64,000 bases of DNA from Promethearchaeota archaeon (GTDB lineage Archaea > Asgardarchaeota > Lokiarchaeia > Sigyniarchaeales > SOKP01), in the NCBI GenBank assembly GCA_048940925.1, contig JBHLOC010000001.1, positions 128,001-192,000 of the forward strand, read 5' to 3'. Each line of letters opens with the position of its first letter. The first letter of the stretch is position 1. Of this stretch, positions 43,696 through 63,933 are shown one piece after another. The position numbers and the translations under genes are program-made. The notes below the pieces were generated by a model. That model searched no databases and was not told where the DNA came from. It worked only from the letters and a program-made list of their open reading frames with translations.

Positions 43696-43797
43696 CGGGC
43701 TATGAGGGATTTGAACCCCCGACCTGCCGGTATCCGCTACGAATTTTGTAATAGTCGCTTAAGAGCCGGTTGCGCTACCTGCCTGCGCCAATAGCCC
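43696..43797 (-). tRNA. tRNA-Lys(CTT) with 28-nt intron at 37/38 (43732..43759)
   Basis: Acceptor GGGCTAT/ATAGCCC, T-loop GGTTCAAATCC, anticodon loop CT-CTT-A^A. Confidence 0.9.
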
Positions 43798-43835
43798 TTT
43801 CATATAAATTTATAAAATTGTCAATATATACTTAG

Positions 43836-43945
43836 CGCAGACGGAGGGACTCGAACCCCCGAGCGCTTATGCGCACCGGCTCTCAATGTTATGATCTTCA
43901 TTATAGCACTCAAGGCCGGCGTCTTACCAACTAGGCTACGTCTGC
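43836..43945 (-). tRNA. tRNA-Ser(TGA) with 27-nt anticodon-loop intron (about 43882..43908)
   Basis: Acceptor GCAGACG/CGTCTGC, G73, long variable arm, CCGGC/GCCGG stem; exact junction ambiguous because TTGAG is repeated. Confidence 0.85.
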
Positions 43946-44133
43946 ACAATATATTTGATTTTAAGATTCTTAGCTATTAATTTAGATTATATTAAATATA
44001 ATAAATTTTTTTTTATTCTAAATTTGTTCATAGGGAATAAATTATATCTTTTGAAAGCTAGATTTTATAATAAAATATTAAAATTTTGAAATGTTATATT
44101 GAAATTGTACAATATCAAAAATTTGTCAAACAT

Positions 44134-44216
44134 GCAATCGTCGCTTAGCCTGGTAGAGCGCCGGTCTGCTAAACCGGTGTCCAACGGATTCGTGGGTTCA
44201 AATCCCACCGATTGCG
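44134..44216 (+). tRNA. tRNA-Ser(GCT), no intron
   Basis: GCAATCG/CGATTGC, CCGGT-CTGCTAA-ACCGG, long variable arm. Confidence 0.93.
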
Positions 44217-44225
44217 TTTAGCTAT

Positions 44226-44331
44226 GGGCCAGTGGTCTAGTGGTTATGACGTCTCGCTTACACCGAGAAGGTCGGGAGTTCAATAGGAAAAAATATCTCA
44301 TCTTTTCTTGGAAACCTCTCCTGGCCCACCA
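44226..44331 (+). tRNA. tRNA-Val(TAC) with 30-nt non-canonical T-loop intron at 59/60 (44285..44314); CCA encoded
   Basis: TCTCG-CTTACAC-CGAGA anticodon arm; BHB with UUCA/UGGA helix and AU^A, AA^C bulges. Confidence 0.92.
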
Positions 44332-53947: not shown

Positions 53948-55613
53948 TCAATGATTTAGAGTTTTAGAGACATATACACCATCTATTTTATATCCCATTT
54001 CATAGAACCAATCTCTTGCTCCAATACCACTTATTACTACTAGTTTTTTTGCTCCAAATTCTTCAAATGAGGTTTTTTCAGCATTTTCCATTAATAATTT
54101 TCCATATCCTCTATGTTGTATTTGAATAAGTCGCTTGGGTTTCAAGTCTTTTGGAACCATTTCTCCAACTACCTTGATTTCCCTTACGATTAATGTTTTT
54201 CCATCATTTATTTCAGGTCTGTGGGCAAATTCAGAAGGCTTTCTTAAGCGTAAATATCCAATTAAATAATTTTCGATTTTATTCTCATAGGATAAGAATA
54301 TTTCTTTTCCCTGAGAAGCATCATAATCAAAACGATATAGTTTTATTTTATCAAAGGATTTCTCATCAATAAGTTCCTCTTTCTTACTAATCCCATATTC
54401 TCTACATCTAATACATTTGCAAGTTTCATCCCAACTTTTTAGTCTCTCTTGGACTAACTGTCTTAAATTGCTATTTTTACAACCTGCTTTGATTAATGTC
54501 GCAGGTATATCTCTCATTATTCTTTGAATTCTCACATAGGATGGAAGGTTTTTTTTAGCCATTGCAATTAATTCAATTAAGTCTTCATCCGAGTATGGTA
54601 AGTAATTTCCATTTTTCCACCAATTATGCAATTCAGTACCATCTATCACGAGAGTAGGATAAATTTTTAACATATCAGGTCGATAATCTGGATTAGAAAA
54701 TAAGCTATCAAATAATTTTAAATCTTTTTGAATAGTTGAACCGGGTAAATTTGGCATTACATGTGCATTGATTTTTAATCCTGCATCTTTAGCAATCCTT
54801 ATCGATTCAATGCTATCAGCAGTTGTATGCCCTCTTTTCACTAGATCATAGATTTCATTATAGACTGTTTGAATACCAATTTCGACTCGCGTTGTTCCAA
54901 AATTTAACATATTATCTACATGTGTCTCTTTACAATAATCTGGTCTTGTCTCAACGGTAATACCTATAACCCTTCTTTTAGATTTTTCTGCTAATAGCTT
55001 AGCTTCTTCCAAACTGCCTGTTTTTTGTTTTATTATTCCCTCTAATGCCCCTTTAACGAAATGTGTTTGATAATCTGGATCAGTTGATAAGAAAGTCCCA
55101 CCCATTATAATAAGTTCAATCTTTTATGGTGGCAAACAATTAAGCGTATACCATGTCCACTTTATGCCCAATGGCTTCTAAATCTTTTATTCGAGATTGA
55201 ACTTGCTTATAAGGATCATAATTGTTATGGATTGATCTCATCGCCGCTGGTTCTCTTCCTGTATATGATTGGGCAACTTTTTCCCCTGGTTGGGAGTTTA
55301 CTCCAGGACAGTATATACATGTTCCGGGACAAGGAAGAGGTTTAGTCATAATTGCTATTACTGAAACTCCTGAAATTGTTCTTGTTGTTCTTCTCTTCAA
55401 AAATTTATTGATAATCTCTTTTTCTTCATTTGTTGCATGGTGTATAATACTGGCATTTTTTATAACTCGATTATAATTATACTTTTTTCCAATTTGTCCT
55501 TTAAGGTTTGTTATTTTTCTGCGAGAAGTTTTAGGATTTTCTAAAAGATACTCAATTATTTCTCTTGCTATTTTCTTTACTATACTTGAGTTTATATTAT
55601 CTGATTGTTCCAT
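53948..55613 (-). CDS. elp3: tRNA U34 acetyltransferase Elp3, two exons (55155..55613 + 53948..55123), 544 aa after splicing
   Basis: Radical-SAM CPGTCIYC and QSYTGREP in exon 1; MGGTF, ETRPD, KIYPT, QHRGYG, ISGIGAR in exon 2; junction restores GHKVD|KIELIIMGGTF. Confidence 0.93.
55124..55154 (-). other. 31-nt BHB-type intron in elp3 mRNA
   Basis: GUGG/CCAU central helix, bulges AC^A and AA^A, inner stem UGGUAUACG/UGUUUGCCA; insert carries a stop and a frameshift. Confidence 0.85.
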
Positions 55614-56395
55614 TCTTAAATTAATTAATTTGATAGAAAGATTTAAATCTTCATGAAAATTATACTTTTCGATTTATCTTTTAATACAAATCTCAAGCAA
55701 TATGATTTCTATTTCAAAATAAAGGAAGAAAAAATAAGATACACTAAAAGATGGTTTCTATATCAGAAAAAGTACAAGTCAAAAAATTTATCTCCTTAAC
55801 ATCTATTATCAAATTTATCAAGCTTTTCAAAATATTCTAAACTCTAATCTAAACCTTTCATTTGCAATAAATTCTTTAAAGATGTATAATTGTTAATCCC
55901 AAATTTTCCTACAATTCTTTTTATTTTTATAATTAAACCTTGTTTATGCCATACTTGATATTTTTGATGCAAATCTGACCCAAATTCTGAATTAAGGATA
56001 TCAATAAAAAACTCCCGAATAGAAGGATCTCTAAATGTGCTTTATCCCTCAGGTTTATCTAAATATTTGAAGATTTCGTTAACATCTCTATCTATAAGAA
56101 AATATTATGCTAACTTGTAGGTAGTTATCTCAAAATATCCTAAAGTTTCTGAAATTAGTCTATTAAGTGTCATATGAGTTTTGATATCATACTTTTTAAA
56201 AAATTTTTGTAAGAAATTTTTTTGTTCTCTTGTATTTTGTTCAAATCATTAAGAATTGTAGATTCTAAATATTAGATTTAAATTTAAAGTTTCGAAAAAA
56301 TATTTTTTTGAAATTGTTTCATAAATATTTAAATATGGAATGTTACATATAGATTATAGTATGAAAAAATTTAACTTTAAGGTGATATATACAAA

Positions 56396-57922
56396 TTGTC
56401 GGGAGGTTTGAAAAACATTATCGCTACAGTTACAACTACAATTGAAGAAAAAGTTAATTTCAGTCAATTGGCAAGTAAATATTCCGAACTATTATATAAT
56501 CCCGAGAAGTTTCCTGGATTGATCATGCAGATAGAAAAACCGAAAGCAACGGTTGTGTTATTTTCCACTGGAAAAATGGTTATAACAGGACTTCAGCAAA
56601 CCTCAGATGTTGAAAAAGTAATGGAAAAAGTAATTGAGTTTTTTAGAGCTGAGGGAATAGAATTAAAAAATCTGGAAATTTCAATGGAAAGAGTAAAGCC
56701 AAAAAGAATAAAAATATGCCTATTAGGGGAAAAAGGTGTTGGAAAATCTACTTTAATGGACACAGTATTAAAATCTTCAGAGAAAGTTACAACTAAAAAA
56801 CAAAAAGATATTATCGGAGTAGATTTTTTTAATGTAAAAGTTAGAGATATTGATGGTAAGGACGTTATTCTACAATTATGGAATATAATTGACGAAGAAC
56901 GTTTTAAACAAATTCAGCAAAATTATTATGTGGGCGCTGATGGAGGGATTATATTCTATGATATCACAAATAAATCCAGTTTTGAAAATCTTGATAATTA
57001 TGTTTCAGCATTTAGAAAATCAAAAAGAAATCGAAACATCCCTATTATTTTGGTTGGAAATAAATTCGATCTTCGAGAAAATAGAGAAGTCTCGCAAACT
57101 GAAGCTTCCAAGGTAGTGGTTACTCGTAAAATGGTAGGTTATCTTGAATTTTCTGCGCTAGATAGTCAAAATGTAATTAAATTATTTGAATCAATTTGCC
57201 GAATTATAATACGGAAAAAAAACTTAATCTCTATTTCTGAAGCTTTGGAAAATGATCTTAATTTAAGAATTTTGATGAATTTACAAATATTTAAAGAATT
57301 AAGTTTGGTAGAGATCTCGAAAAGAGTTGTTAAAAGTAAAGCCACTATTTCTCGTCATACTCGAAATTTAATTAAGCTAGGTCTAATTGAATCTCATGTT
57401 AAAGAGATAGAACCGCAAACAGGTACGATTAAGCGAAAATATTATACATTAAGTAAAGATTTGAGCTATCATATAGAAAAAAGAGATTTTAATTTTTCTC
57501 AATTGAAATCAAGAATAAAATGGAAGATATTTTCAGAGTTTTATCTAAAAAAACTATATAATTTCAAAACAGTTAATCTCTTATCAAAAAGATTAAATAA
57601 TATGCTAGAAGATTTTAATAATCATATTTTTGGTGGTTTTCCGGCACTCATAAAGCAATATGGAAAATATATTGAAAATTTACCTATAAATTTTCAATTT
57701 TTAAATGAAAAGCAAAATCAAAAAGTTCAGTCTCTATTACTAAAATTTGATTCAAAATTAAGAGATATATTAGCAGATGATGATGGTTCAGAGAAGTCTT
57801 ATTTATTTTTGAATATGACGCTTCCAACAGTGGATTTAATAAATCTCTTTGAAAAACCTGAACTGTTTAACCATATAATTCTAAATCGAGAGATTAAAAA
57901 AGAGAAAAAAGGTTTTGAATAA
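56396..57922 (+). CDS. Fusion protein: single TBP-like repeat + Rab-like small GTPase + ArsR-type winged HTH + C-terminal domain
   Basis: NIIAT...YNPEKFPGLI...LFSTGKMVITG; GEKGVGKS, IGVDF, NKFD, EFSA; LSLVEISKRVVKSKATISRHTRNLIKLGLI. Confidence 0.85.
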   Translation: MSGGLKNIIATVTTTIEEKVNFSQLASKYSELLYNPEKFPGLIMQIEKPKATVVLFSTGKMVITGLQQTSDVEKVMEKVIEFFRAEGIELKNLEISMERVKPKRIKICLLGEKGVGKSTLMDTVLKSSEKVTTKKQKDIIGVDFFNVKVRDIDGKDVILQLWNIIDEERFKQIQQNYYVGADGGIIFYDITNKSSFENLDNYVSAFRKSKRNRNIPIILVGNKFDLRENREVSQTEASKVVVTRKMVGYLEFSALDSQNVIKLFESICRIIIRKKNLISISEALENDLNLRILMNLQIFKELSLVEISKRVVKSKATISRHTRNLIKLGLIESHVKEIEPQTGTIKRKYYTLSKDLSYHIEKRDFNFSQLKSRIKWKIFSEFYLKKLYNFKTVNLLSKRLNNMLEDFNNHIFGGFPALIKQYGKYIENLPINFQFLNEKQNQKVQSLLLKFDSKLRDILADDDGSEKSYLFLNMTLPTVDLINLFEKPELFNHIILNREIKKEKKGFE

Positions 57923-58122
57923 TAATTATAAAGTAATTTTCTTTCTTGCAAAATCTCTTTTATATTTGCCAAATTTCTCTTTACTCAATTATAACTATTT
58001 TACCCCGAAAAGGTTCTTTAAAAATTACCAAAATTTTGAATTTTTTTGTGAAATTTTAAAAGTGCATTTAATAATGAGTTGGGGTGATCTCCAGTGTTGC
58101 ATAATATTATAAAAAACTCAAG

Positions 58123-58467
58123 ATGATTTCAGACTATATAAATAATTATTTAGAAGCGACAGAGAGTCATCTCTTGACATCTGTAGCTATGGGAGAAATA
58201 CCAATGATAGAGATAATTAATGTACTTATGGAAGCACTCGAGAAGAACTTGATACACTATCAGTTTATATCTGAGGACCAATACAAGAAGGTTAAGGCAT
58301 TAAGCCTTGAGTCTCATTCTAAATTAGCTGAGATTCTAAAAAAGGATGAAAATCCTGTGAAGCCTTATTTATTCTTTGATATCTTGCTTAAAATGCTAGG
58401 TGTTGTTAAGATTGGTAATAAAACAAGCGAAGCTATATTAGGGCTTCGACAGACAATAAAGACTTAA
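58123..58467 (+). pseudogene. Stand-alone or remnant copy of the C-terminal domain of the upstream fusion protein
   Basis: IHYQFISEDQYKKV...SKLAEIL..DE...KPYLF aligns with INFQFLNEKQNQKV...SKLRDIL..DD...KSYLF. Confidence 0.55.
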
Positions 58468-58470
58468 AAA

Positions 58471-59316
58471 TTACTCTAATAATATCTTCTTACCAGTAAA
58501 ATCTCTTTTATACTTCCCAAAATCTTGAATTTTTTTGAGAGTTTCCGAATTAAAAATTGGTCCATCTTTACAAACCAGTAAACCTAATGGATCTAGAACG
58601 CATAATCCGCATAATCCGCACCCACACCTCATTATCCTTTCTAGACTTGCATAGAACTCAAGGTGATATTCTTGACATAACTGAAATAATTCAAACAACA
58701 TAATTTCTGGACCACAAGAATAGACAATACTATTAGACTGGTCTTTTTTATTAAATTTTCCAATTATCTCTTTAAAGACATCAGGAATTAATCCCTCTGT
58801 TCCATAACTTCCGTTGTCAGTACAATAATATACTTCAGTTTTAATTTTTTTAAAATAGTCAATATAAATTAATTCATTATCTATCTTAGCACCTTCAATT
58901 ACATAGTGTTTTATTTTATTTTCTGAAAGTTCTTTTGATAAGAATTTTAGAGGAGCCATACCTATCCCTCCACCAACTAAGAAAATATTTTTAGAACTAT
59001 CCGTTGGAATTTTAAAATGATTACCTACAGGCCCCCTTACTCCAATAAAATCTCCAATCTTTAAGTTATACATAGCATTTGTACATTCTCCAACGTTTTT
59101 TATTGTAATTGACCAATTTCCATCATTATCGCATCCAGAGAGGGACATTGGAACTTCATCTATGCCGGGTACCCATACCAAAACAAATTGGCCTGGTTTA
59201 GGAATAATGGAATTTTTATTTTTACTTGATTTCATGTTAAAAACAAGCGTTTTAATATCTTTACATTCATCAATAATATTCTTTATTTTCACTGTTTTAA
59301 TTGTATTTTCAGTCAA
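58471..59316 (-). CDS. pyrK: Dihydroorotate dehydrogenase electron transfer subunit
   Basis: PGQF, RGPVG, GGGIG, CGP, MRCGCGLCGLC, CKDGP. Confidence 0.94.
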   Translation of the reverse strand: MTENTIKTVKIKNIIDECKDIKTLVFNMKSSKNKNSIIPKPGQFVLVWVPGIDEVPMSLSGCDNDGNWSITIKNVGECTNAMYNLKIGDFIGVRGPVGNHFKIPTDSSKNIFLVGGGIGMAPLKFLSKELSENKIKHYVIEGAKIDNELIYIDYFKKIKTEVYYCTDNGSYGTEGLIPDVFKEIIGKFNKKDQSNSIVYSCGPEIMLFELFQLCQEYHLEFYASLERIMRCGCGLCGLCVLDPLGLLVCKDGPIFNSETLKKIQDFGKYKRDFTGKKILLE

Positions 59317-60235
59317 AATCGGGTACCTCCTGAGTTGTAAACTGATGAGAAAATCCTTTTAATTCATTAATAGATTTAAATTTATTTTCTTTTAGATATT
59401 GAGTTATTCCATGATTTATTTCAGTTATAATTTCGGTTGTTTTATATAATGCTGTACCGATTTGCACTGCTGAAGCCCCAGCTAAAAAGAATTCTATTAC
59501 GTCTTGCCATGAATCTATTCCTCCACATCCTATAATTGGGATTTTTAAAACTTTATATAGATCATATACTTTCTTTATAGCTATAGGATGAATAGCTTTT
59601 CCAGAAAGCCCACCACTTCCATGAGATAAAATGGGTCTTTTAGTATTTACATCTATTATCATTGCTGATAAAGTATTTATAGCAACCAGTCCATCAGCGC
59701 CACCTTTCTCAGCTGCTAAGGCGATTTCTACTATATTTGTTACATTGGGATTCAATTTTACAAAAAGTGGGATTAATAATTTTTTTTTTAGAAATTTAAT
59801 GATTTCATAAGTTAATTCTTTATCAATGCCTATAGAAGATACTTCGGCATGTGGACATGAGATATTTATTTCAATTGCATCAGCACCGGCTTTTTCAGCT
59901 TTAATTGCCACATCAAGATATGTCTCATTTGTATCTCCAAAAACACTTACGATTAGAGGAATGTTATTTTTTTTCACTTCTTTTATTTCTGGTATAAAAT
60001 TATCAATACCAGGATTGCCTAGACCTACTGCGTTCAAGAAAGAGCCAGAATAAATTTCAATTATTGATGGATTTTTGTATCCTTTTCGTGGTTTTGGTCC
60101 AATAGATTTTGTAGTTACAGCACCGGCTCCAGCATCGATAACCCTTTTCATCGAAGAGTAAGAAACTCCTAAGATACCAGATGCTAATATAATTGGGGAT
60201 TTTAATTTTAACCCTGAAAGATTAATTTCTAGCAT
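59309..60235 (-). CDS. pyrD: Dihydroorotate dehydrogenase B catalytic subunit
   Basis: ASG, TTKS, NISCPH, INT, GGLSG, GASAVQIGT. Confidence 0.96.
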   Translation of the reverse strand: MLEINLSGLKLKSPIILASGILGVSYSSMKRVIDAGAGAVTTKSIGPKPRKGYKNPSIIEIYSGSFLNAVGLGNPGIDNFIPEIKEVKKNNIPLIVSVFGDTNETYLDVAIKAEKAGADAIEINISCPHAEVSSIGIDKELTYEIIKFLKKKLLIPLFVKLNPNVTNIVEIALAAEKGGADGLVAINTLSAMIIDVNTKRPILSHGSGGLSGKAIHPIAIKKVYDLYKVLKIPIIGCGGIDSWQDVIEFFLAGASAVQIGTALYKTTEIITEINHGITQYLKENKFKSINELKGFSHQFTTQEVPDFD

Positions 60236-60313
60236 TTTTTAAAAGAAAATAATGATTATGATCTTATAAATCATTTTTAATAGAGTTATAATAATTTAGA
60301 ACAGTTCAAAAAA

Positions 60314-61519
60314 ATGAAGTGCTACATCATTGATACTTTGGTCGGTGTATTTGCTCTTGATGAGATAGGAAATACTATAAATTTTATTGATTTTAATAGA
60401 GATAATGAAAGAGTTATAGAATTTTATACAACTTTAGATACAGAACAAATTTTAAATGAATTTAAAGAATTTATTTCAGATTTGAAAAATTCTGGTTTTA
60501 ATATATTTATTTTTGATAATAAGAAAATGGAAAGATTAACTTCTCAGAAGTTAGAAGTATCTACTAAATTAAATTTAACTTCATTGGAATTTAAAAATTA
60601 TAGATTAAATCTAATTGAACAGCTTAAAAAAGTTGGAATAAGTGTATCAAAAGACGAACTCTTGAGTAGATATAAGAAAATTAATGAAGAGTTAATTAAA
60701 AAGAAGGTAAGTGAAGTTGGGGGGCAAAAAGACATAATTATTATTCAAACTAATGAAACATTAGACATTATTAAGAAATCTCTTAGTTTATTCATAGCAC
60801 GACTTAGAGAATGGTATGGATTACATTTCCCAGAATTAACTGATAAAGTTATTGATGATAATATTCTAATCACAAAATTAATCTCAAGTTTAGGGCATAG
60901 AGATAATTATACTATCGATAATCTTAAACAAAACTTTGATTTTAAAGAAAAAAGAATTCAGAATTTACATAGCCAAGCAATTAATTCGATGGGTGCTGAA
61001 ATTGATCTTGAGATTGTCAAGGCTTATGCAAATCAGATACTATCCTTAAATTCTTATATTGAGGAATTAGAGAGTTATTTAGAGGATTTGATGGAAAAAA
61101 CAGCACCTAATCTTAGAGCTATTGTCGGTTCTTTAATAGGAGCTAAACTAATTTCAAAAGCTGGTGGATTAAAAAAGTTAGCTTACATGCCAGCTTCAAG
61201 AATCCAATTATTAGGTGCTGAAAAAGCATTATATCGTTTTTTGAGAACTGGTGAAAAAAGACCTAAGCATGGATTAATATTTCAATGGAATCAAATTAGA
61301 TCAGCTAAACCTTATCACAGGGGAAAAATAGCCCGAATTGTCGCAGGTAAGTTAGGACTTTCTGCTAAAGTTGATTTTTTTTCAGGAGAATTTATTGGGG
61401 ATAGATTGTCACGAGAAATTGAAGAAAAAATAAAGGAAGTTGAAGAAAAATATCCAAATCCTCCCAAAAAGGTAGATAAAGTGAAAAATAAGAAAAAAAG
61501 ATCAAAAAAAAGAAAGTGA
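60314..61519 (+). CDS. nop5: C/D box RNP protein Nop5 (Nop56/58)
   Basis: REWYGLHFPEL, APNL, IQLLGAEKAL, PKHG. Confidence 0.96.
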   Translation: MKCYIIDTLVGVFALDEIGNTINFIDFNRDNERVIEFYTTLDTEQILNEFKEFISDLKNSGFNIFIFDNKKMERLTSQKLEVSTKLNLTSLEFKNYRLNLIEQLKKVGISVSKDELLSRYKKINEELIKKKVSEVGGQKDIIIIQTNETLDIIKKSLSLFIARLREWYGLHFPELTDKVIDDNILITKLISSLGHRDNYTIDNLKQNFDFKEKRIQNLHSQAINSMGAEIDLEIVKAYANQILSLNSYIEELESYLEDLMEKTAPNLRAIVGSLIGAKLISKAGGLKKLAYMPASRIQLLGAEKALYRFLRTGEKRPKHGLIFQWNQIRSAKPYHRGKIARIVAGKLGLSAKVDFFSGEFIGDRLSREIEEKIKEVEEKYPNPPKKVDKVKNKKKRSKKRK

Positions 61520-61536
61520 GGTAAATAAATAGAAAA

Positions 61537-62235
61537 ATGACAAAAACTGAGATTAGAAATCATCCAAAATTTTCTAATGTTTTTATATCCGGCCCTCGAG
61601 AAAAATTAACACTGTATACTAAAAACCTAGATCAAGGTTTTAAGGTTTATGGTGAGAAATTAATAGAATATAAAGGAGAGGAATATAGAGAATGGGATCC
61701 ATTTAGGAGTAAACTAGCAGCTCTAATCTTAGAAAACCCTACTAGAAATTTCTTATCTATTGATTTTAATTGTTTGTATTTGGGTGCATCATCAGGGACA
61801 ACAATCTCCCACCTTTCAGATATCATACCCACAGGAATTATATATGGTGTTGAATTTTCTGAAAGAAGCATCAGACAATTAATTCAGAACACATCAAATA
61901 GAAAGAATATTATTCCAATATTAGGAGATGCTAGAAATCCTGAAAGTTATGCAAAATCAATTTTTACTAAAGTTGATTTAATTTACCAAGATGTTGCTCA
62001 ACCTAATCAAACCGAGATAGCAATTCGTAATTGTAATTATTATTTAAAAGATGGTGGAATATTAATTCTTGCTATAAAATCCCAATCTATAGATAGTATT
62101 CAAAAATCTGAACTTGTTTATGCTAAAGAACAATCTACTCTCAAAAAAGCAGATTATAATCTCATAGAAAGTGTAAATATACATAAATTTGCCGCTAATC
62201 ATATTATATTGATTGCAGAAAAAACATTCACTTAA
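61537..62235 (+). CDS. flpA: Fibrillarin-like rRNA/tRNA 2'-O-methyltransferase
   Basis: VYGE, WDPFRSKLAA, LYLGASSGTT, QDVAQP. Confidence 0.96.
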   Translation: MTKTEIRNHPKFSNVFISGPREKLTLYTKNLDQGFKVYGEKLIEYKGEEYREWDPFRSKLAALILENPTRNFLSIDFNCLYLGASSGTTISHLSDIIPTGIIYGVEFSERSIRQLIQNTSNRKNIIPILGDARNPESYAKSIFTKVDLIYQDVAQPNQTEIAIRNCNYYLKDGGILILAIKSQSIDSIQKSELVYAKEQSTLKKADYNLIESVNIHKFAANHIILIAEKTFT

Positions 62236-62927
62236 AAGAATTCAGTTATTTTTCTATTTGCCACCTCTTCATTTAATATATTTTTAGTTGTATCCCATGA
62301 TTTCCTTGCAATTTGTGGTGCTTTTTTATGTTTTTTTACCCATACTCGAAGAAATTCTATAGTTGTTACATCAGAGGGATATCCCGATCCAAATTCTCCA
62401 TACTTTTTTTTTAATTCGTCTATTGAGGTGTCTCTTTTATTTTTTGCAATTATAGATCCAGCTGAAACTATTGGATAAATATCATCAGCTTTATGTTTCG
62501 AAATTATTCTTTTAGGTTTGTAATTTAGTAATTTTTTGATTGACCGACCAAATCTTTCTTCATTTACATCAGCAGCATCAACATATATGATGTCTGGTTT
62601 TAAAATATTAATAATTTCAGCCATTTTTAATTCTTCAAGTCGATTCATCGTAATATTCTTTTCCTTTCTCTGATCTATCTCTTCAGGATCTACTATGATA
62701 ATTTTATAGGAATAACAATTGTTTTTGATAAGTTTAGATAATTGACTCCTCCTTTTGGTTGATAATTTTTTTGAATCTTTAACCCCAATTTCAGATAAAA
62801 ATTCTAATTTATGATTAGTAAAACAGACGCCACAAATAACCATAGGACCTAAGACAGAGCCTTTTAACATATAATTCGATCTGAATTATTTTCTGCCAGC
62901 CTCGTCTATACCACAAATTACTTCCAA
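62232..62927 (-). CDS. rnhB: Ribonuclease HII, two exons (62893..62927 + 62232..62862), 221 aa after splicing
   Basis: Exon 1 from TTG gives LEVICGIDEAG; junction restores DEAGR|GSVLGPMV; exon 2 has DSKKL, HKAD, VSAGSIIAK, GSGYPSD. Confidence 0.93.
62863..62892 (-). other. 30-nt BHB intron in rnhB mRNA
   Basis: UGGC/GUUA central helix, bulges AG^A and AA^A, inner stem AAAUAAUUC/GAAUUAUAU, outer GAGGC/GGCUC; in-frame UAA inside. Confidence 0.87.
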
Positions 62928-62934
62928 CTTTTCA

Positions 62935-63933
62935 TCAAGATTCTTGTATGAGTTCAATGAATTCTTCCTCATCATCAATTTTTTCTAAATTCTTTATTTT
63001 AACAATATGTATATCATCTTTTTTTATTAAGGCTGGAATTTTTACATGGTTATTGACAATAAATAGAGCTGTTTTATGGAATAACTCATTAAACATCTTT
63101 AAACATCGAAAATTCATTTGATTTATATTTTTCTGCTCCTCAGAGATAGCTGAAAACAGAGGATAAAAGCCCTCTTCAGTTTTTTCAATCGAAGAAAACA
63201 ATGATAATTTAAAGGGTATTGAGCCTTTCTTATACCAATATGCGGACAATCCTATATCGTCTATTATTGAATTTACACGTGATTCAAAATCACTTAACTC
63301 TTTTTCTTCTTGATTTTCAATATCTCTTTGATGAGAATTAATTTTCCATTTAAAGATATTAATCTTTTTGAAAATTTCATTATTATCTAGTATATTTAAT
63401 ATTTTTATGGCAATTTGATCTGAGGGTCGCATACTTTCGTTTTCATAAGCACTTATTGTCCTCTTAGTAACGCCTAGTTTTTCAGATAATTCCTTTCTTG
63501 TTATTAATTGTTTTTCTCTTATTGTTTTCATCAATATACCGTCTAAAAAGACTACACCGCCACCTCTTCTTGCTAAAATATAGGGGTATATATTTTTATT
63601 TAGAATTTTCTCAAAAGTATTTAATGTTATAAAAGGCAAACCTTCTCTTACATATATTGTATTATCCTCTAAGTTTTGGTATCGATTCTTGATGCCAATC
63701 AATAATGGTTTTGATTTTAATATAAATGATAATTGTTTAATATCTCGGATGAGGTCAGGATTTAAATTATCTATATTAGGAAAGACTTTAAGGCTAAAAA
63801 CTTGATCATTCTTTTTTACTAATAAATCAAAACAAAATTTTGTCTTTTTGCTAGCAAAATTTCCTATATTTAAGGTTTCAAAGTTCGCCTTCTTCAGTAA
63901 ATCATCAATCTTCTCTATGACTGTACTTATCAT
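62935..63933 (-). CDS. Archaeal HTH transcriptional regulator (COG1395-like)
   Basis: CFDLL, KVFPNID, ARRGG, Cro/C1 HTH LSEKLGVTKRTISAYE. Confidence 0.85.
   Translation of the reverse strand: MISTVIEKIDDLLKKANFETLNIGNFASKKTKFCFDLLVKKNDQVFSLKVFPNIDNLNPDLIRDIKQLSFILKSKPLLIGIKNRYQNLEDNTIYVREGLPFITLNTFEKILNKNIYPYILARRGGGVVFLDGILMKTIREKQLITRKELSEKLGVTKRTISAYENESMRPSDQIAIKILNILDNNEIFKKINIFKWKINSHQRDIENQEEKELSDFESRVNSIIDDIGLSAYWYKKGSIPFKLSLFSSIEKTEEGFYPLFSAISEEQKNINQMNFRCLKMFNELFHKTALFIVNNHVKIPALIKKDDIHIVKIKNLEKIDDEEEFIELIQES

What the first reader, a model, noticed from the sequence alone, without database searches (positions are those of the whole stretch)
55124..62892. tRNA-type (BHB) splicing of mRNAs: two intron-interrupted protein genes within 8 kb of an Asgard-like genome
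Seen: elp3 and rnhB each carry a short structured insert inside a conserved motif, and the same window has three intron-containing tRNAs. All five introns are 27-31 nt. The two mRNA introns and the tRNA-Val intron share bulge patterns (5' bulge AN^A, 3' bulge AA^N). Established: the archaeal splicing endonuclease EndA cuts BHB motifs after the second bulge nucleotide and RtcB ligates; the classic mRNA example is crenarchaeal cbf5. Inference: this lineage uses the tRNA splicing machinery on several mRNAs, both here encoding nucleic-acid processing or modifying enzymes. That could tie their expression to endonuclease activity and would make annotation pipelines miscall them as pseudogenes. I cannot confirm from here whether it is already described for this lineage.
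Basis: partly seen in the sequence, partly recalled or inferred. Interest (0 to 1): 0.95.

Follow-up and report, generated by a model that had tools for sequence, protein, structure and literature searches.

The report
tRNA-type mini-introns in two Asgard genes
Two healthy, single-copy genes (elp3 and rnhB) of an Asgard archaeon are each interrupted by a 30-31-base insert shaped like the introns that the tRNA-splicing enzymes cut out, so their messenger RNAs almost certainly have to be cut and rejoined before they can be translated, which the papers I could search document for only two other archaeal genes.

Summary
Observation confirmed.

- **elp3 (minus strand):** a 31-nt insert at 55124-55154.
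- **rnhB (minus strand):** a 30-nt insert at 62863-62892.
- **Predicted cuts:** each insert lies in a bulge-helix-bulge fold. Cutting after the second nucleotide of each bulge restores the conserved motifs exactly (GHKVD|KIELIIMGGTF and GIDEAGR|GSVLGP).
- **Real DNA:** independent read assemblies from two studies carry both inserts without differences.
- **rnhB distribution:** the insert sits at the same codon in at least 48 genomes from 8 genera of one Promethearchaeota family, and its helices covary strongly.
- **elp3 distribution:** the insert occurs in 5 of 118 family genomes plus 7 metagenome contigs, and its hairpin also covaries.
- **Gene health:** both genes are single-copy and under purifying selection (dN/dS 0.09-0.23).
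- **Machinery:** the genome encodes a catalytic and a non-catalytic EndA subunit and RtcB.
- **tRNAs:** three of the four tRNA genes in the window carry 27-30-nt introns. One is a tRNA-Val T-loop intron that ARAGORN and Rfam both missed.

Not supported: a special link to nucleic-acid enzymes. I confirmed similar inserts in purA and aIF2-gamma of the same genome.

This scan had already reported the same phenomenon on other pieces of this genome. I found no paper describing it for Asgard archaea.

The parts
55155..55613 (-). elp3 exon 1 (ATG 55613 to the last exon base C 55155). Encodes ELP3_N and the radical-SAM CxxxCxxC motif and ends ...AIGHKVD.
55124..55154 (-). elp3 intron, 31 nt. The 5' bulge is AC^A (55156-55154). 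The central 4-bp helix is GUGG (55160-55157) with CCAU (55129-55126). The 3' bulge is AA^A (55125-55123). The intron forms a hairpin of about 9 bp.
   Evidence: Exact 31-nt insertion against intron-less orthologues. The unconstrained fold of 122 nt gives this motif.
53948..55123 (-). elp3 exon 2 (AAG 55123 to the stop at 53948-53950). Starts KIELIIMGGTF and carries the rest of Radical_SAM plus Radical_SAM_C.
55194..55204 (-). Possible 5' strand (AAGUUCAAUCU) of a long-range outer helix. It pairs with 55112-55122 (AGAUUGAACUU, exon 2) and closes the 3' bulge.
   Evidence: MFE fold. 87.9% paired in 12 intron-bearing sequences but with no compensatory change. Intron-less alleles pair at only 6-8 of 11 positions. 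Unproven.
62893..62927 (-). rnhB exon 1, minimal version from TTG 62927. An in-frame ATG at 62975 or 62972 is the alternative start. Ends ...ICGIDEAG + AG of the Arg codon.
62863..62892 (-). rnhB intron, 30 nt, with an in-frame TAA. Full hBHBh' motif: outer helix GACGAGGC with GGCUCUGUC, 3' bulge AA^A (62864-62862), central helix UGGC (62898-62895) with GUUA (62868-62865), 5' bulge AG^A (62894-62892), and a 7-9-bp intron hairpin.
62232..62862 (-). rnhB exon 2. It starts with the A that completes AGA (Arg), then GSVLGPMV..., and matches RNase_HII profile positions 8-199.
43696..43797 (-). tRNA-Lys(CUU) with a 28-nt anticodon-loop intron
43835..43945 (-). tRNA-Ser(UGA) with a 27-nt anticodon-loop intron
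44226..44328 (+). tRNA-Val(UAC) with a 30-nt intron in the T-loop (44285-44314, between positions 59 and 60). Central helix UUCA with UGGA; bulges AU^A and AA^C.
   Evidence: ARAGORN and Rfam did not call it on the unspliced DNA.

Best explanation
Both inserts are archaeal bulge-helix-bulge (BHB) introns inside coding sequence.

**Proposed mechanism**
1. The pre-mRNA folds so that two 3-nt bulges lie on opposite strands, 4 bp apart. The central helix pairs the last exon-1 bases before the 5' bulge with the last intron bases before the 3' bulge, as in a pre-tRNA.
2. The heteromeric splicing endonuclease cuts after the second nucleotide of each bulge.
3. RtcB joins the exons and probably circularises the 30-31-nt intron.
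4. Only the ligated mRNA encodes full-length Elp3 or RNase HII. Unspliced RNA ends in a stop codon 2-4 codons into the intron.

**Shown here**
- The inserts are real DNA.
- The fold geometry predicts the exact junctions.
- The helices covary.
- The genes are under purifying selection.
- The enzymes are encoded in the genome.

**Inferred**
- Cleavage and ligation in vivo.
For: **1. Geometry**
- With the rule 'cut after bulge nucleotide 2', the hand-drawn BHB gives GAC|AAG (elp3) and AG|A-GGC (rnhB). These are exactly the junctions found in intron-less orthologues.
- The same rule gives a normal 7-nt T-loop for tRNA-Val.
- An unconstrained fold of 122 nt around the elp3 insert returns the motif.

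**2. rnhB covariation** (44 sequences, 8 genera)
- 87.5% of cells are paired, against 25-45% when partners are slid by 1-3 columns.
- 11 pairs change on both sides, and 0 of 500 shuffles reach the covariation score.
- The central-helix pair at columns 16/43 occurs as UG, GC, CG and UA.

**3. elp3 covariation** (12 sequences)
- 91% paired against 29-42% slid.
- 5 hairpin pairs change on both sides.
- The BHB core is invariant.

**4. Frozen synonymous exon sites in intron-bearing rnhB alleles**
- The Glu codon of DEAGR is GAG in 44 of 44 intron-bearing alleles. It is GAA in about half of the roughly 20 intron-less alleles.

**5. Purifying selection between intron-bearing genomes**
- dN/dS is 0.09-0.17 for elp3 and 0.10-0.23 for rnhB.

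**6. Single copy in this genome**

**7. Machinery**
- Two EndA-domain ORFs. By my reading of the sequences, one has the Tyr, His and Lys catalytic residues and one lacks them.
- One RtcB on the same contig.
- PMC5829648 assigns Asgard archaea an (alpha-beta)2 EndA with the L1 loop, the type that accepts relaxed motifs.

**8. Real DNA**
- Contigs from two studies carry the inserts unchanged.
Against: - There is no RNA evidence. No RNA run holds this DNA, so no exon-exon junction or circular intron has been seen.
- The elp3 motif is relaxed. No helix lies directly against the 3' bulge on the 5' side; the only candidate closes across a 33-nt loop and shows no covariation.
- Several rnhB central-helix pairs are G-U, and ViennaRNA does not predict that helix in the MFE fold.
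- My structure-plus-ORF scans of the whole genome showed no excess over offset controls, so the motif alone is not a specific predictor.
Confidence: 0.88

Rival explanations
1. Programmed translational bypass (ribosome hopping, as in phage T4 gene 60). The ribosome takes off before the stop, skips the hairpin and lands downstream.
For: In this genome rnhB reads AGA-AAA-UAA, then a hairpin, then UUA-AAA-GGC. A Lys codon could therefore serve as both take-off and landing site, with a stop and a hairpin between them.
Against: - The matching codons are not conserved. Most relatives read AGA-AUA-UAA or AGA-AUU-UAA, with no matching landing codon before GGC.
- elp3 has no matching pair of codons either.
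- What is conserved and covaries is the BHB geometry, including a helix between exon 1 and the 3' end of the insert. Bypass does not need that helix.
Confidence: 0.03
2. Split genes: each piece is translated separately and the halves assemble, or only the larger piece is used.
For: - Gene callers find start codons for the second pieces: an ATG inside the rnhB insert and the ATG of IIMGGTF in elp3.
- Split genes exist in some archaea.
Against: - The ATG inside the rnhB insert is not conserved; many relatives have ACC, CCU or CCC there.
- rnhB exon 1 is only 12-28 codons. From what is known of RNase HII, it carries the first Asp and Glu of the catalytic DEDD set, and these codons stay invariant in all intron-bearing genomes.
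- The elp3 break lies inside the radical-SAM barrel, with no room for a promoter or ribosome-binding site in 31 nt.
- Separate translation does not explain the covarying helices.
Confidence: 0.04
3. Decaying pseudogenes or an assembly error.
For: A stop codon or frameshift interrupts each gene.
Against: - There are no other lesions.
- dN/dS is 0.09-0.23.
- The same insert sits at the same codon in dozens of genomes.
- No second copy exists in the genome.
- Independent contigs agree with the window.
Confidence: 0.02

Closest known systems
BHB intron in the cbf5 pre-mRNA of Crenarchaeota (Desulfurococcales and Sulfolobales; Watanabe 2002, Yoshinari 2006, Yokobori 2009 = PMC2738675)
   Same: - A short intron inside the coding sequence of an RNA-related enzyme.
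- A relaxed BHB motif.
- A host with a heteromeric (alpha-beta)2 endonuclease.
- Patchy gain and loss among relatives.
   Different: - Other genes (elp3, rnhB) and another phylum (Promethearchaeota, Asgard).
- At least four interrupted protein genes that I checked in one genome, rather than one.
- The rnhB intron is kept at one codon across 8 genera.
- cbf5 splicing was shown experimentally; splicing here was not.
EndA-dependent splicing of HVO_1309 mRNA in Haloferax volcanii (PMC7714728; summarised in PMC10485636)
   Same: An mRNA substrate of the tRNA splicing endonuclease. The 2023 review counts it with cbf5 as the 'at least two archaeal genes' spliced this way.
   Different: - A euryarchaeon with a homodimeric enzyme.
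- I did not read whether that intron interrupts a conserved coding motif.
Non-canonical tRNA introns of Asgard and TACK archaea (PMC5829648; bioRxiv 10.64898/2026.10.13.758758)
   Same: - The same motif, the same size range and the same presumed enzymes.
- The tRNA-Val T-loop intron in this window has the same bulge pattern as the two mRNA introns.
   Different: - The host RNA is an mRNA.
- The exon strands of the helices are coding sequence, so codon choice is constrained by the fold.
HAC1/XBP1 unconventional mRNA splicing in eukaryotes (Ire1 cut, RtcB or Trl1 ligation)
   Same: A spliceosome-independent cut-and-ligate removal of a short intron that changes the reading frame. RtcB is the ligase in animals.
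   Different: - The endonuclease is Ire1, not EndA/TSEN.
- The cut sites lie in stem-loops, not a BHB.
- It is regulated by stress. No regulation is shown here.

Membership tests
Archaeal BHB intron (EndA substrate) | Two 3-nt bulges on opposite strands separated by a 4-bp helix | tested here: met
   - rnhB: UGGC with GUUA, between AG^A and AA^A.
- elp3: GUGG with CCAU, between AC^A and AA^A.
(pair counts)
Archaeal BHB intron (EndA substrate) | Flanking helices on both sides (strict hBHBh' form) | tested here: inconclusive
   - rnhB: both are present. The outer helix is 84.6% paired and the hairpin 88.4%.
- elp3: the hairpin is present. The outer helix exists only as a long-range pairing without covariation, so this is the relaxed form.
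Archaeal BHB intron (EndA substrate) | Cuts after bulge nucleotide 2 give a functional mature RNA | tested here: met
   The predicted junctions equal those of intron-less orthologues to the base.
Archaeal BHB intron (EndA substrate) | Structure maintained by compensatory change | tested here: met
   - rnhB: 11 pairs changed on both sides, 0 of 500 shuffles.
- elp3: 5 pairs, 2 of 500 shuffles.
Archaeal BHB intron (EndA substrate) | Host encodes the splicing endonuclease and RtcB ligase | tested here: met
   PF01974 matches twice (catalytic-like and non-catalytic-like) and PF01139 once.
Archaeal BHB intron (EndA substrate) | Cleavage by EndA, ligated exons and a circular intron observed | not testable with these tools
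   No RNA run holds the locus.
Elp3 (radical-SAM / acetyltransferase tRNA modifier) | ELP3_N, Radical_SAM with CxxxCxxC, Radical_SAM_C, and full-length collinearity with orthologues | tested here: met
   Pfam matches on both exons. The codon alignment with 10 orthologues is gap-free at the junction.
RNase HII (rnhB) | RNase_HII domain including the N-terminal DEAGRG motif | tested here: met
   Exon 2 matches profile positions 8-199. Exon 1 supplies GIDEAGR.

The most novel reading that the evidence does not exclude
In this Asgard family, tRNA-type mini-introns may behave as a population of elements that colonise conserved motifs of many protein genes and spread between genera by recombination together with flanking exon sequence.

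**Evidence in hand**
- The elp3 intron travels with a whole exon-1 allele. That allele is 76-92% identical among intron-bearing genomes of different genera, but only 48-80% identical to same-genus intron-less genomes. A breakpoint lies just after the intron.
- Exon codon choice appears to co-evolve with the splice motif. Examples are Ser TCT instead of AGT/AGC in elp3 and the frozen GAG in rnhB.

**What it would mean**
- The closest prokaryotic relatives of eukaryotes would then carry a dynamic, multi-gene system of interrupted protein genes that depends on RNA splicing.
Probability: 0.35. Interest if true: 0.85.

Novelty: new member of a known kind. Interest (0 to 1): 0.74.

Why it matters
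- **How rare this is in the literature.** The papers I could search document protein-gene introns removed by the tRNA-splicing enzymes for cbf5 in Crenarchaeota and one Haloferax mRNA. A 2023 review expects more to be found.
- **What is added here.** Two more genes carry such introns, and I confirmed at least two further ones in the same genome. One of the introns has been kept for a long evolutionary time across a family of Asgard archaea, the lineage closest to eukaryotes.
- **Bearing on open questions.** This touches the debate on how interrupted genes and RNA splicing relate to eukaryote origins, and it recalls RtcB-dependent XBP1 splicing.
- **Testable substrates.** It gives concrete substrates for testing the specificity of the Asgard endonuclease.
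- **Annotation.** Public gene calls for these loci are truncated or split. Gene content, completeness and pseudogene counts for such genomes are therefore skewed.

Tried and rejected
- **RNA evidence.** The look-up of sequencing runs listed no RNA holder for 54900-63000, so expression and splicing could not be examined.
- **Whole-genome counts of such introns from structure plus reading-frame continuity.**
  - I ran three scans: loose, strict hairpin with bulge motif, and with codon-usage filters.
  - None gave an excess over controls in which the structure test was offset by 7-15 nt.
  - The scans recover elp3 and rnhB at the exact coordinates, and a likely EF-2 paralogue intron.
  - Most other hits are gene starts or intergenic noise. 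The motif alone cannot count introns in a 30% G+C genome.
- **Repeat family.** blastn-short of the introns against the genome found only themselves, so they are not repeats.
- **First ViennaRNA folds.** Short windows gave weak z-scores (-0.1 to -1.8) and missed the G-U-rich central helix of rnhB. Comparative counts were needed.
- **Long-range outer helix of elp3.** It is well paired but shows no compensatory change, so I do not claim it.
- **Literature.** Six searches and five papers read gave nothing on mRNA introns in Asgard archaea. Subscription-only papers were not searched.
Full report
**What is there.** The window has 29.7% G+C. It is G000:C40:128001-192000 of a 4.8-Mb, 90-contig genome. 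Close relatives in the public collection are titled Promethearchaeota archaeon.

On the minus strand, an ORF at 55140-55613 carries ELP3_N and the radical-SAM CxxxCxxC motif. It stops four codons after ...AIGHKVD. The next ORF, 53948-55105, carries Radical_SAM from profile position 73 and Radical_SAM_C.

ORF 62232-62870 matches RNase_HII from profile position 8. The missing GIDEAGR codons lie just upstream, followed by AAA-TAA.

**Exact limits.** Among the first 20 same-genus genomes in which I read the elp3 junction, 19 have an uninterrupted elp3 and one (G024) has the insert. Aligned to them, this genome has exactly 31 extra bases between GAC (Asp) and AAG (Lys), at window 55124-55154. For rnhB, intron-less orthologues read ...GAxGAxGCxGGxAGA-GGx...; here 30 bases (62863-62892) are inserted.

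**Fold.** A BHB motif has two 3-nt bulges on opposite strands, 4 bp apart, and is cut after the second nucleotide of each bulge (established knowledge; described in PMC5829648).

- **rnhB:**
  - The outer helix pairs GACGAGGC with GGCUCUGUC.
  - The 3' bulge is AA^A.
  - The central helix pairs UGGC (exon 1) with GUUA (the intron's 3' end).
  - The 5' bulge is AG^A.
  - A 7-9-bp hairpin follows.
  - The cuts give AG|A-GGC, that is GIDEAGR|GSVLGP.
- **elp3:**
  - The central helix pairs GUGG with CCAU.
  - The 5' bulge is AC^A and the 3' bulge is AA^A.
  - The hairpin is about 9 bp.
  - The cuts give GAC|AAG, that is GHKVD|KIELIIMGGTF.
  - An unconstrained fold of 122 nt returns this motif. It adds an 11-bp long-range helix (55194-55204 with 55112-55122) that closes the 3' bulge.

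Short-window folds alone were unimpressive.

**Comparative test, rnhB.**
- All 23 same-genus genomes whose rnhB junction I could read have the insert (29 nt in G024, 30 nt in the others).
- Three other families of the same order lack it.
- A survey of the whole family covered 135 genomes in 13 genera, and I fetched 40 further junctions.
- The insert sits at the same codon in genera g1, g13, g15, g16, g17, g21, g22 and g23.
- Intron-less alleles are interspersed, including one in genus g1.
- On 44 gap-free sequences the proposed structure is 87.5% paired, against 25-45% when partners are slid. It has 11 pairs changed on both sides and a covariation score of 0.316 against at most 0.10. No shuffle of 500 reached it.
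- The central-helix pair formed by the third base of the Gly codon occurs as UG, GC, CG and UA.
- The exon bases that pair are frozen. The Glu codon is GAG in all 44 intron-bearing alleles but GAA in about half of the roughly 20 intron-less ones.

**Comparative test, elp3.**
- The insert is rare. It occurs in 5 of 118 family genomes with the gene: G000 and G024 in g1, G063 and G064 in g21, and G058 in g17.
- Seven metagenome contigs also carry it.
- On 12 sequences the structure is 91% paired against 29-42% slid. Five hairpin pairs change on both sides, and the BHB core is invariant.
- The long-range helix is 87.9% paired but shows no compensatory change. Intron-less alleles pair at 6-8 of 11 positions there. 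I leave it as possible.

**Are the genes alive?**
- Each gene is single-copy in this genome.
- Between intron-bearing genomes, dN/dS is 0.09-0.17 for elp3 and 0.10-0.23 for rnhB.
- Logan contigs from two studies cover the elp3 insert unchanged. One of them also covers the rnhB insert. No deletion variant was listed.

**Machinery.** The genome has two ORFs with the EndA catalytic-domain fold. By my reading of the sequences, the 198-aa ORF keeps Tyr, His and Lys at the expected places, and the 200-aa ORF has lost Tyr and His. This is what an (alpha-beta)2 enzyme looks like. RtcB lies about 28 kb beyond the window's end on the same contig. PMC5829648 reports that Asgard archaea have the (alpha-beta)2 type with the L1 loop, the kind that accepts relaxed motifs.

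**tRNAs.** The window has four tRNA genes at 43696-44331. Lys(CUU) and Ser(UGA) have 28- and 27-nt anticodon-loop introns. Ser(GCU) has none. tRNA-Val(UAC) has a 30-nt intron between positions 59 and 60 of the T-loop (44285-44314), with central helix UUCA/UGGA and bulges AU^A / AA^C. It is invisible to ARAGORN and Rfam until the insert is removed.

**Beyond these two genes.**
- purA in this genome has a 31-nt insert in WGD|EGKGK, with central helix GGGG/CCCC and bulges AG^U / AU^A.
- aIF2-gamma has a 30-nt insert with three stops in GHVDHG|KTTL.
- My scan also recovered a likely insert in an EF-2 paralogue.
- Earlier notes of this scan list these and more on other pieces of the same genome; I treated them as leads.
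- The targets are therefore not specifically nucleic-acid enzymes, and the AN^A / AA^N bulge pattern is not general.
- A shared trait is that the inserts sit inside the most conserved motifs. That is also typical of elements that spread by recombination, but this link is my inference.

**History of the elp3 intron.**
- The gene in this genome is a mosaic.
- Throughout exon 1 it is 86-93% identical to G024 and 68-87% identical to G064. Both carry the intron, and G064 belongs to another genus.
- In the same region it is only 48-81% identical to the same-genus intron-less genome G023.
- From about 40 nt after the junction, G023 and G015 become the closest (mostly 80-92% over the next 450 nt).
- The last 250 nt are closest to G018 (90-94%).
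- All intron-bearing alleles share a TCT Ser codon about 40 nt upstream, where 24 intron-less alleles have AGT or AGC.
- The simplest reading is that the intron moves between species and genera as part of a recombining exon-1 allele.
- The TCT codon also adds three base pairs to the possible outer helix, so selection on structure may contribute.

**Rivals.**
- Translational bypass fits one feature of rnhB in this genome only (matching AAA codons). It is not conserved.
- Separate translation of the pieces is contradicted in three ways. The internal ATG is not conserved, exon 1 of rnhB is tiny yet invariant, and the helices covary.
- Pseudogene and artefact readings are contradicted by selection, distribution and independent contigs.

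**Known or new.** The searchable literature documents endonuclease-dependent mRNA splicing for cbf5 (PMC2738675) and HVO_1309. [quoted passage not shown] Papers on Asgard tRNA introns and endonucleases do not mention mRNA introns. The mechanism is therefore of a known kind, while the genes, the lineage and the breadth are new.

Public gene calls show the practical cost. They give a 212-aa rnhB that starts inside the intron, and a 157-165-aa 'hypothetical protein' for elp3 exon 1.

**Verdict.** The missing piece is RNA or biochemical proof.

Noticed in passing
window 56396-57922 (+): One 508-aa ORF joins three parts: a single TBP-type repeat (residues 6-82), a Ras/Rab-like small GTPase (106-271) and an ArsR/MarR-type HTH (about 289-333). 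This is an unusual fusion of a transcription-factor fold with a small GTPase.
   Followed up: no
window 53948-55613 (-), against L002, L003, L005, L011, L069: elp3 is a recombinant mosaic. Exon 1 is closest to intron-bearing genomes, including one of another genus. The first 450 nt of exon 2 are closest to G023 and G015. The last 250 nt are closest to G018.
   Followed up: partly
window 44226-44331 (+): tRNA-Val(UAC) with a 30-nt T-loop intron is missed by ARAGORN (even with -i) and by Rfam at gathering and E<=1 thresholds. tRNA counts for such genomes will be too low.
   Followed up: yes
window 62893-62975 (-) and 62935-63933 (-): The rnhB exon-1 frame stays open back to ATG codons at 62975 and 62972, which overlap the 3' end of the upstream HTH_3 gene. 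This ATG is conserved in most same-genus genomes. Two genomes (G013, G004) can only start 10 codons before the junction, so the true start is unclear.
   Followed up: partly
L044 (G024) and L111 (G148): The rnhB insert is 29 nt in G024 and 28 nt in G148, instead of 30. In G024 the unspliced frame stays open (232 aa), so the frame test alone would miss it.
   Followed up: no
window about 62865: Logan contigs of two runs (X1, X6) end at 62865, inside the rnhB intron, and a contig of X12 ends at 62877. This may reflect strain variation in the intron that breaks the assembly graph.
   Followed up: no
G000 C41 near 44580 (-); C68:44680-45936 (-); C32:27895-27924 (-): purA (31 nt), aIF2-gamma (30 nt, three stops) and an EF-2 paralogue (30 nt) carry similar inserts inside conserved motifs.
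   Followed up: partly
window 60314-62235 (+): A Nop5/Nop56 and fibrillarin gene pair (the box C/D RNP core) converges on rnhB, so the neighbourhood is rich in RNA-processing genes.
   Followed up: no
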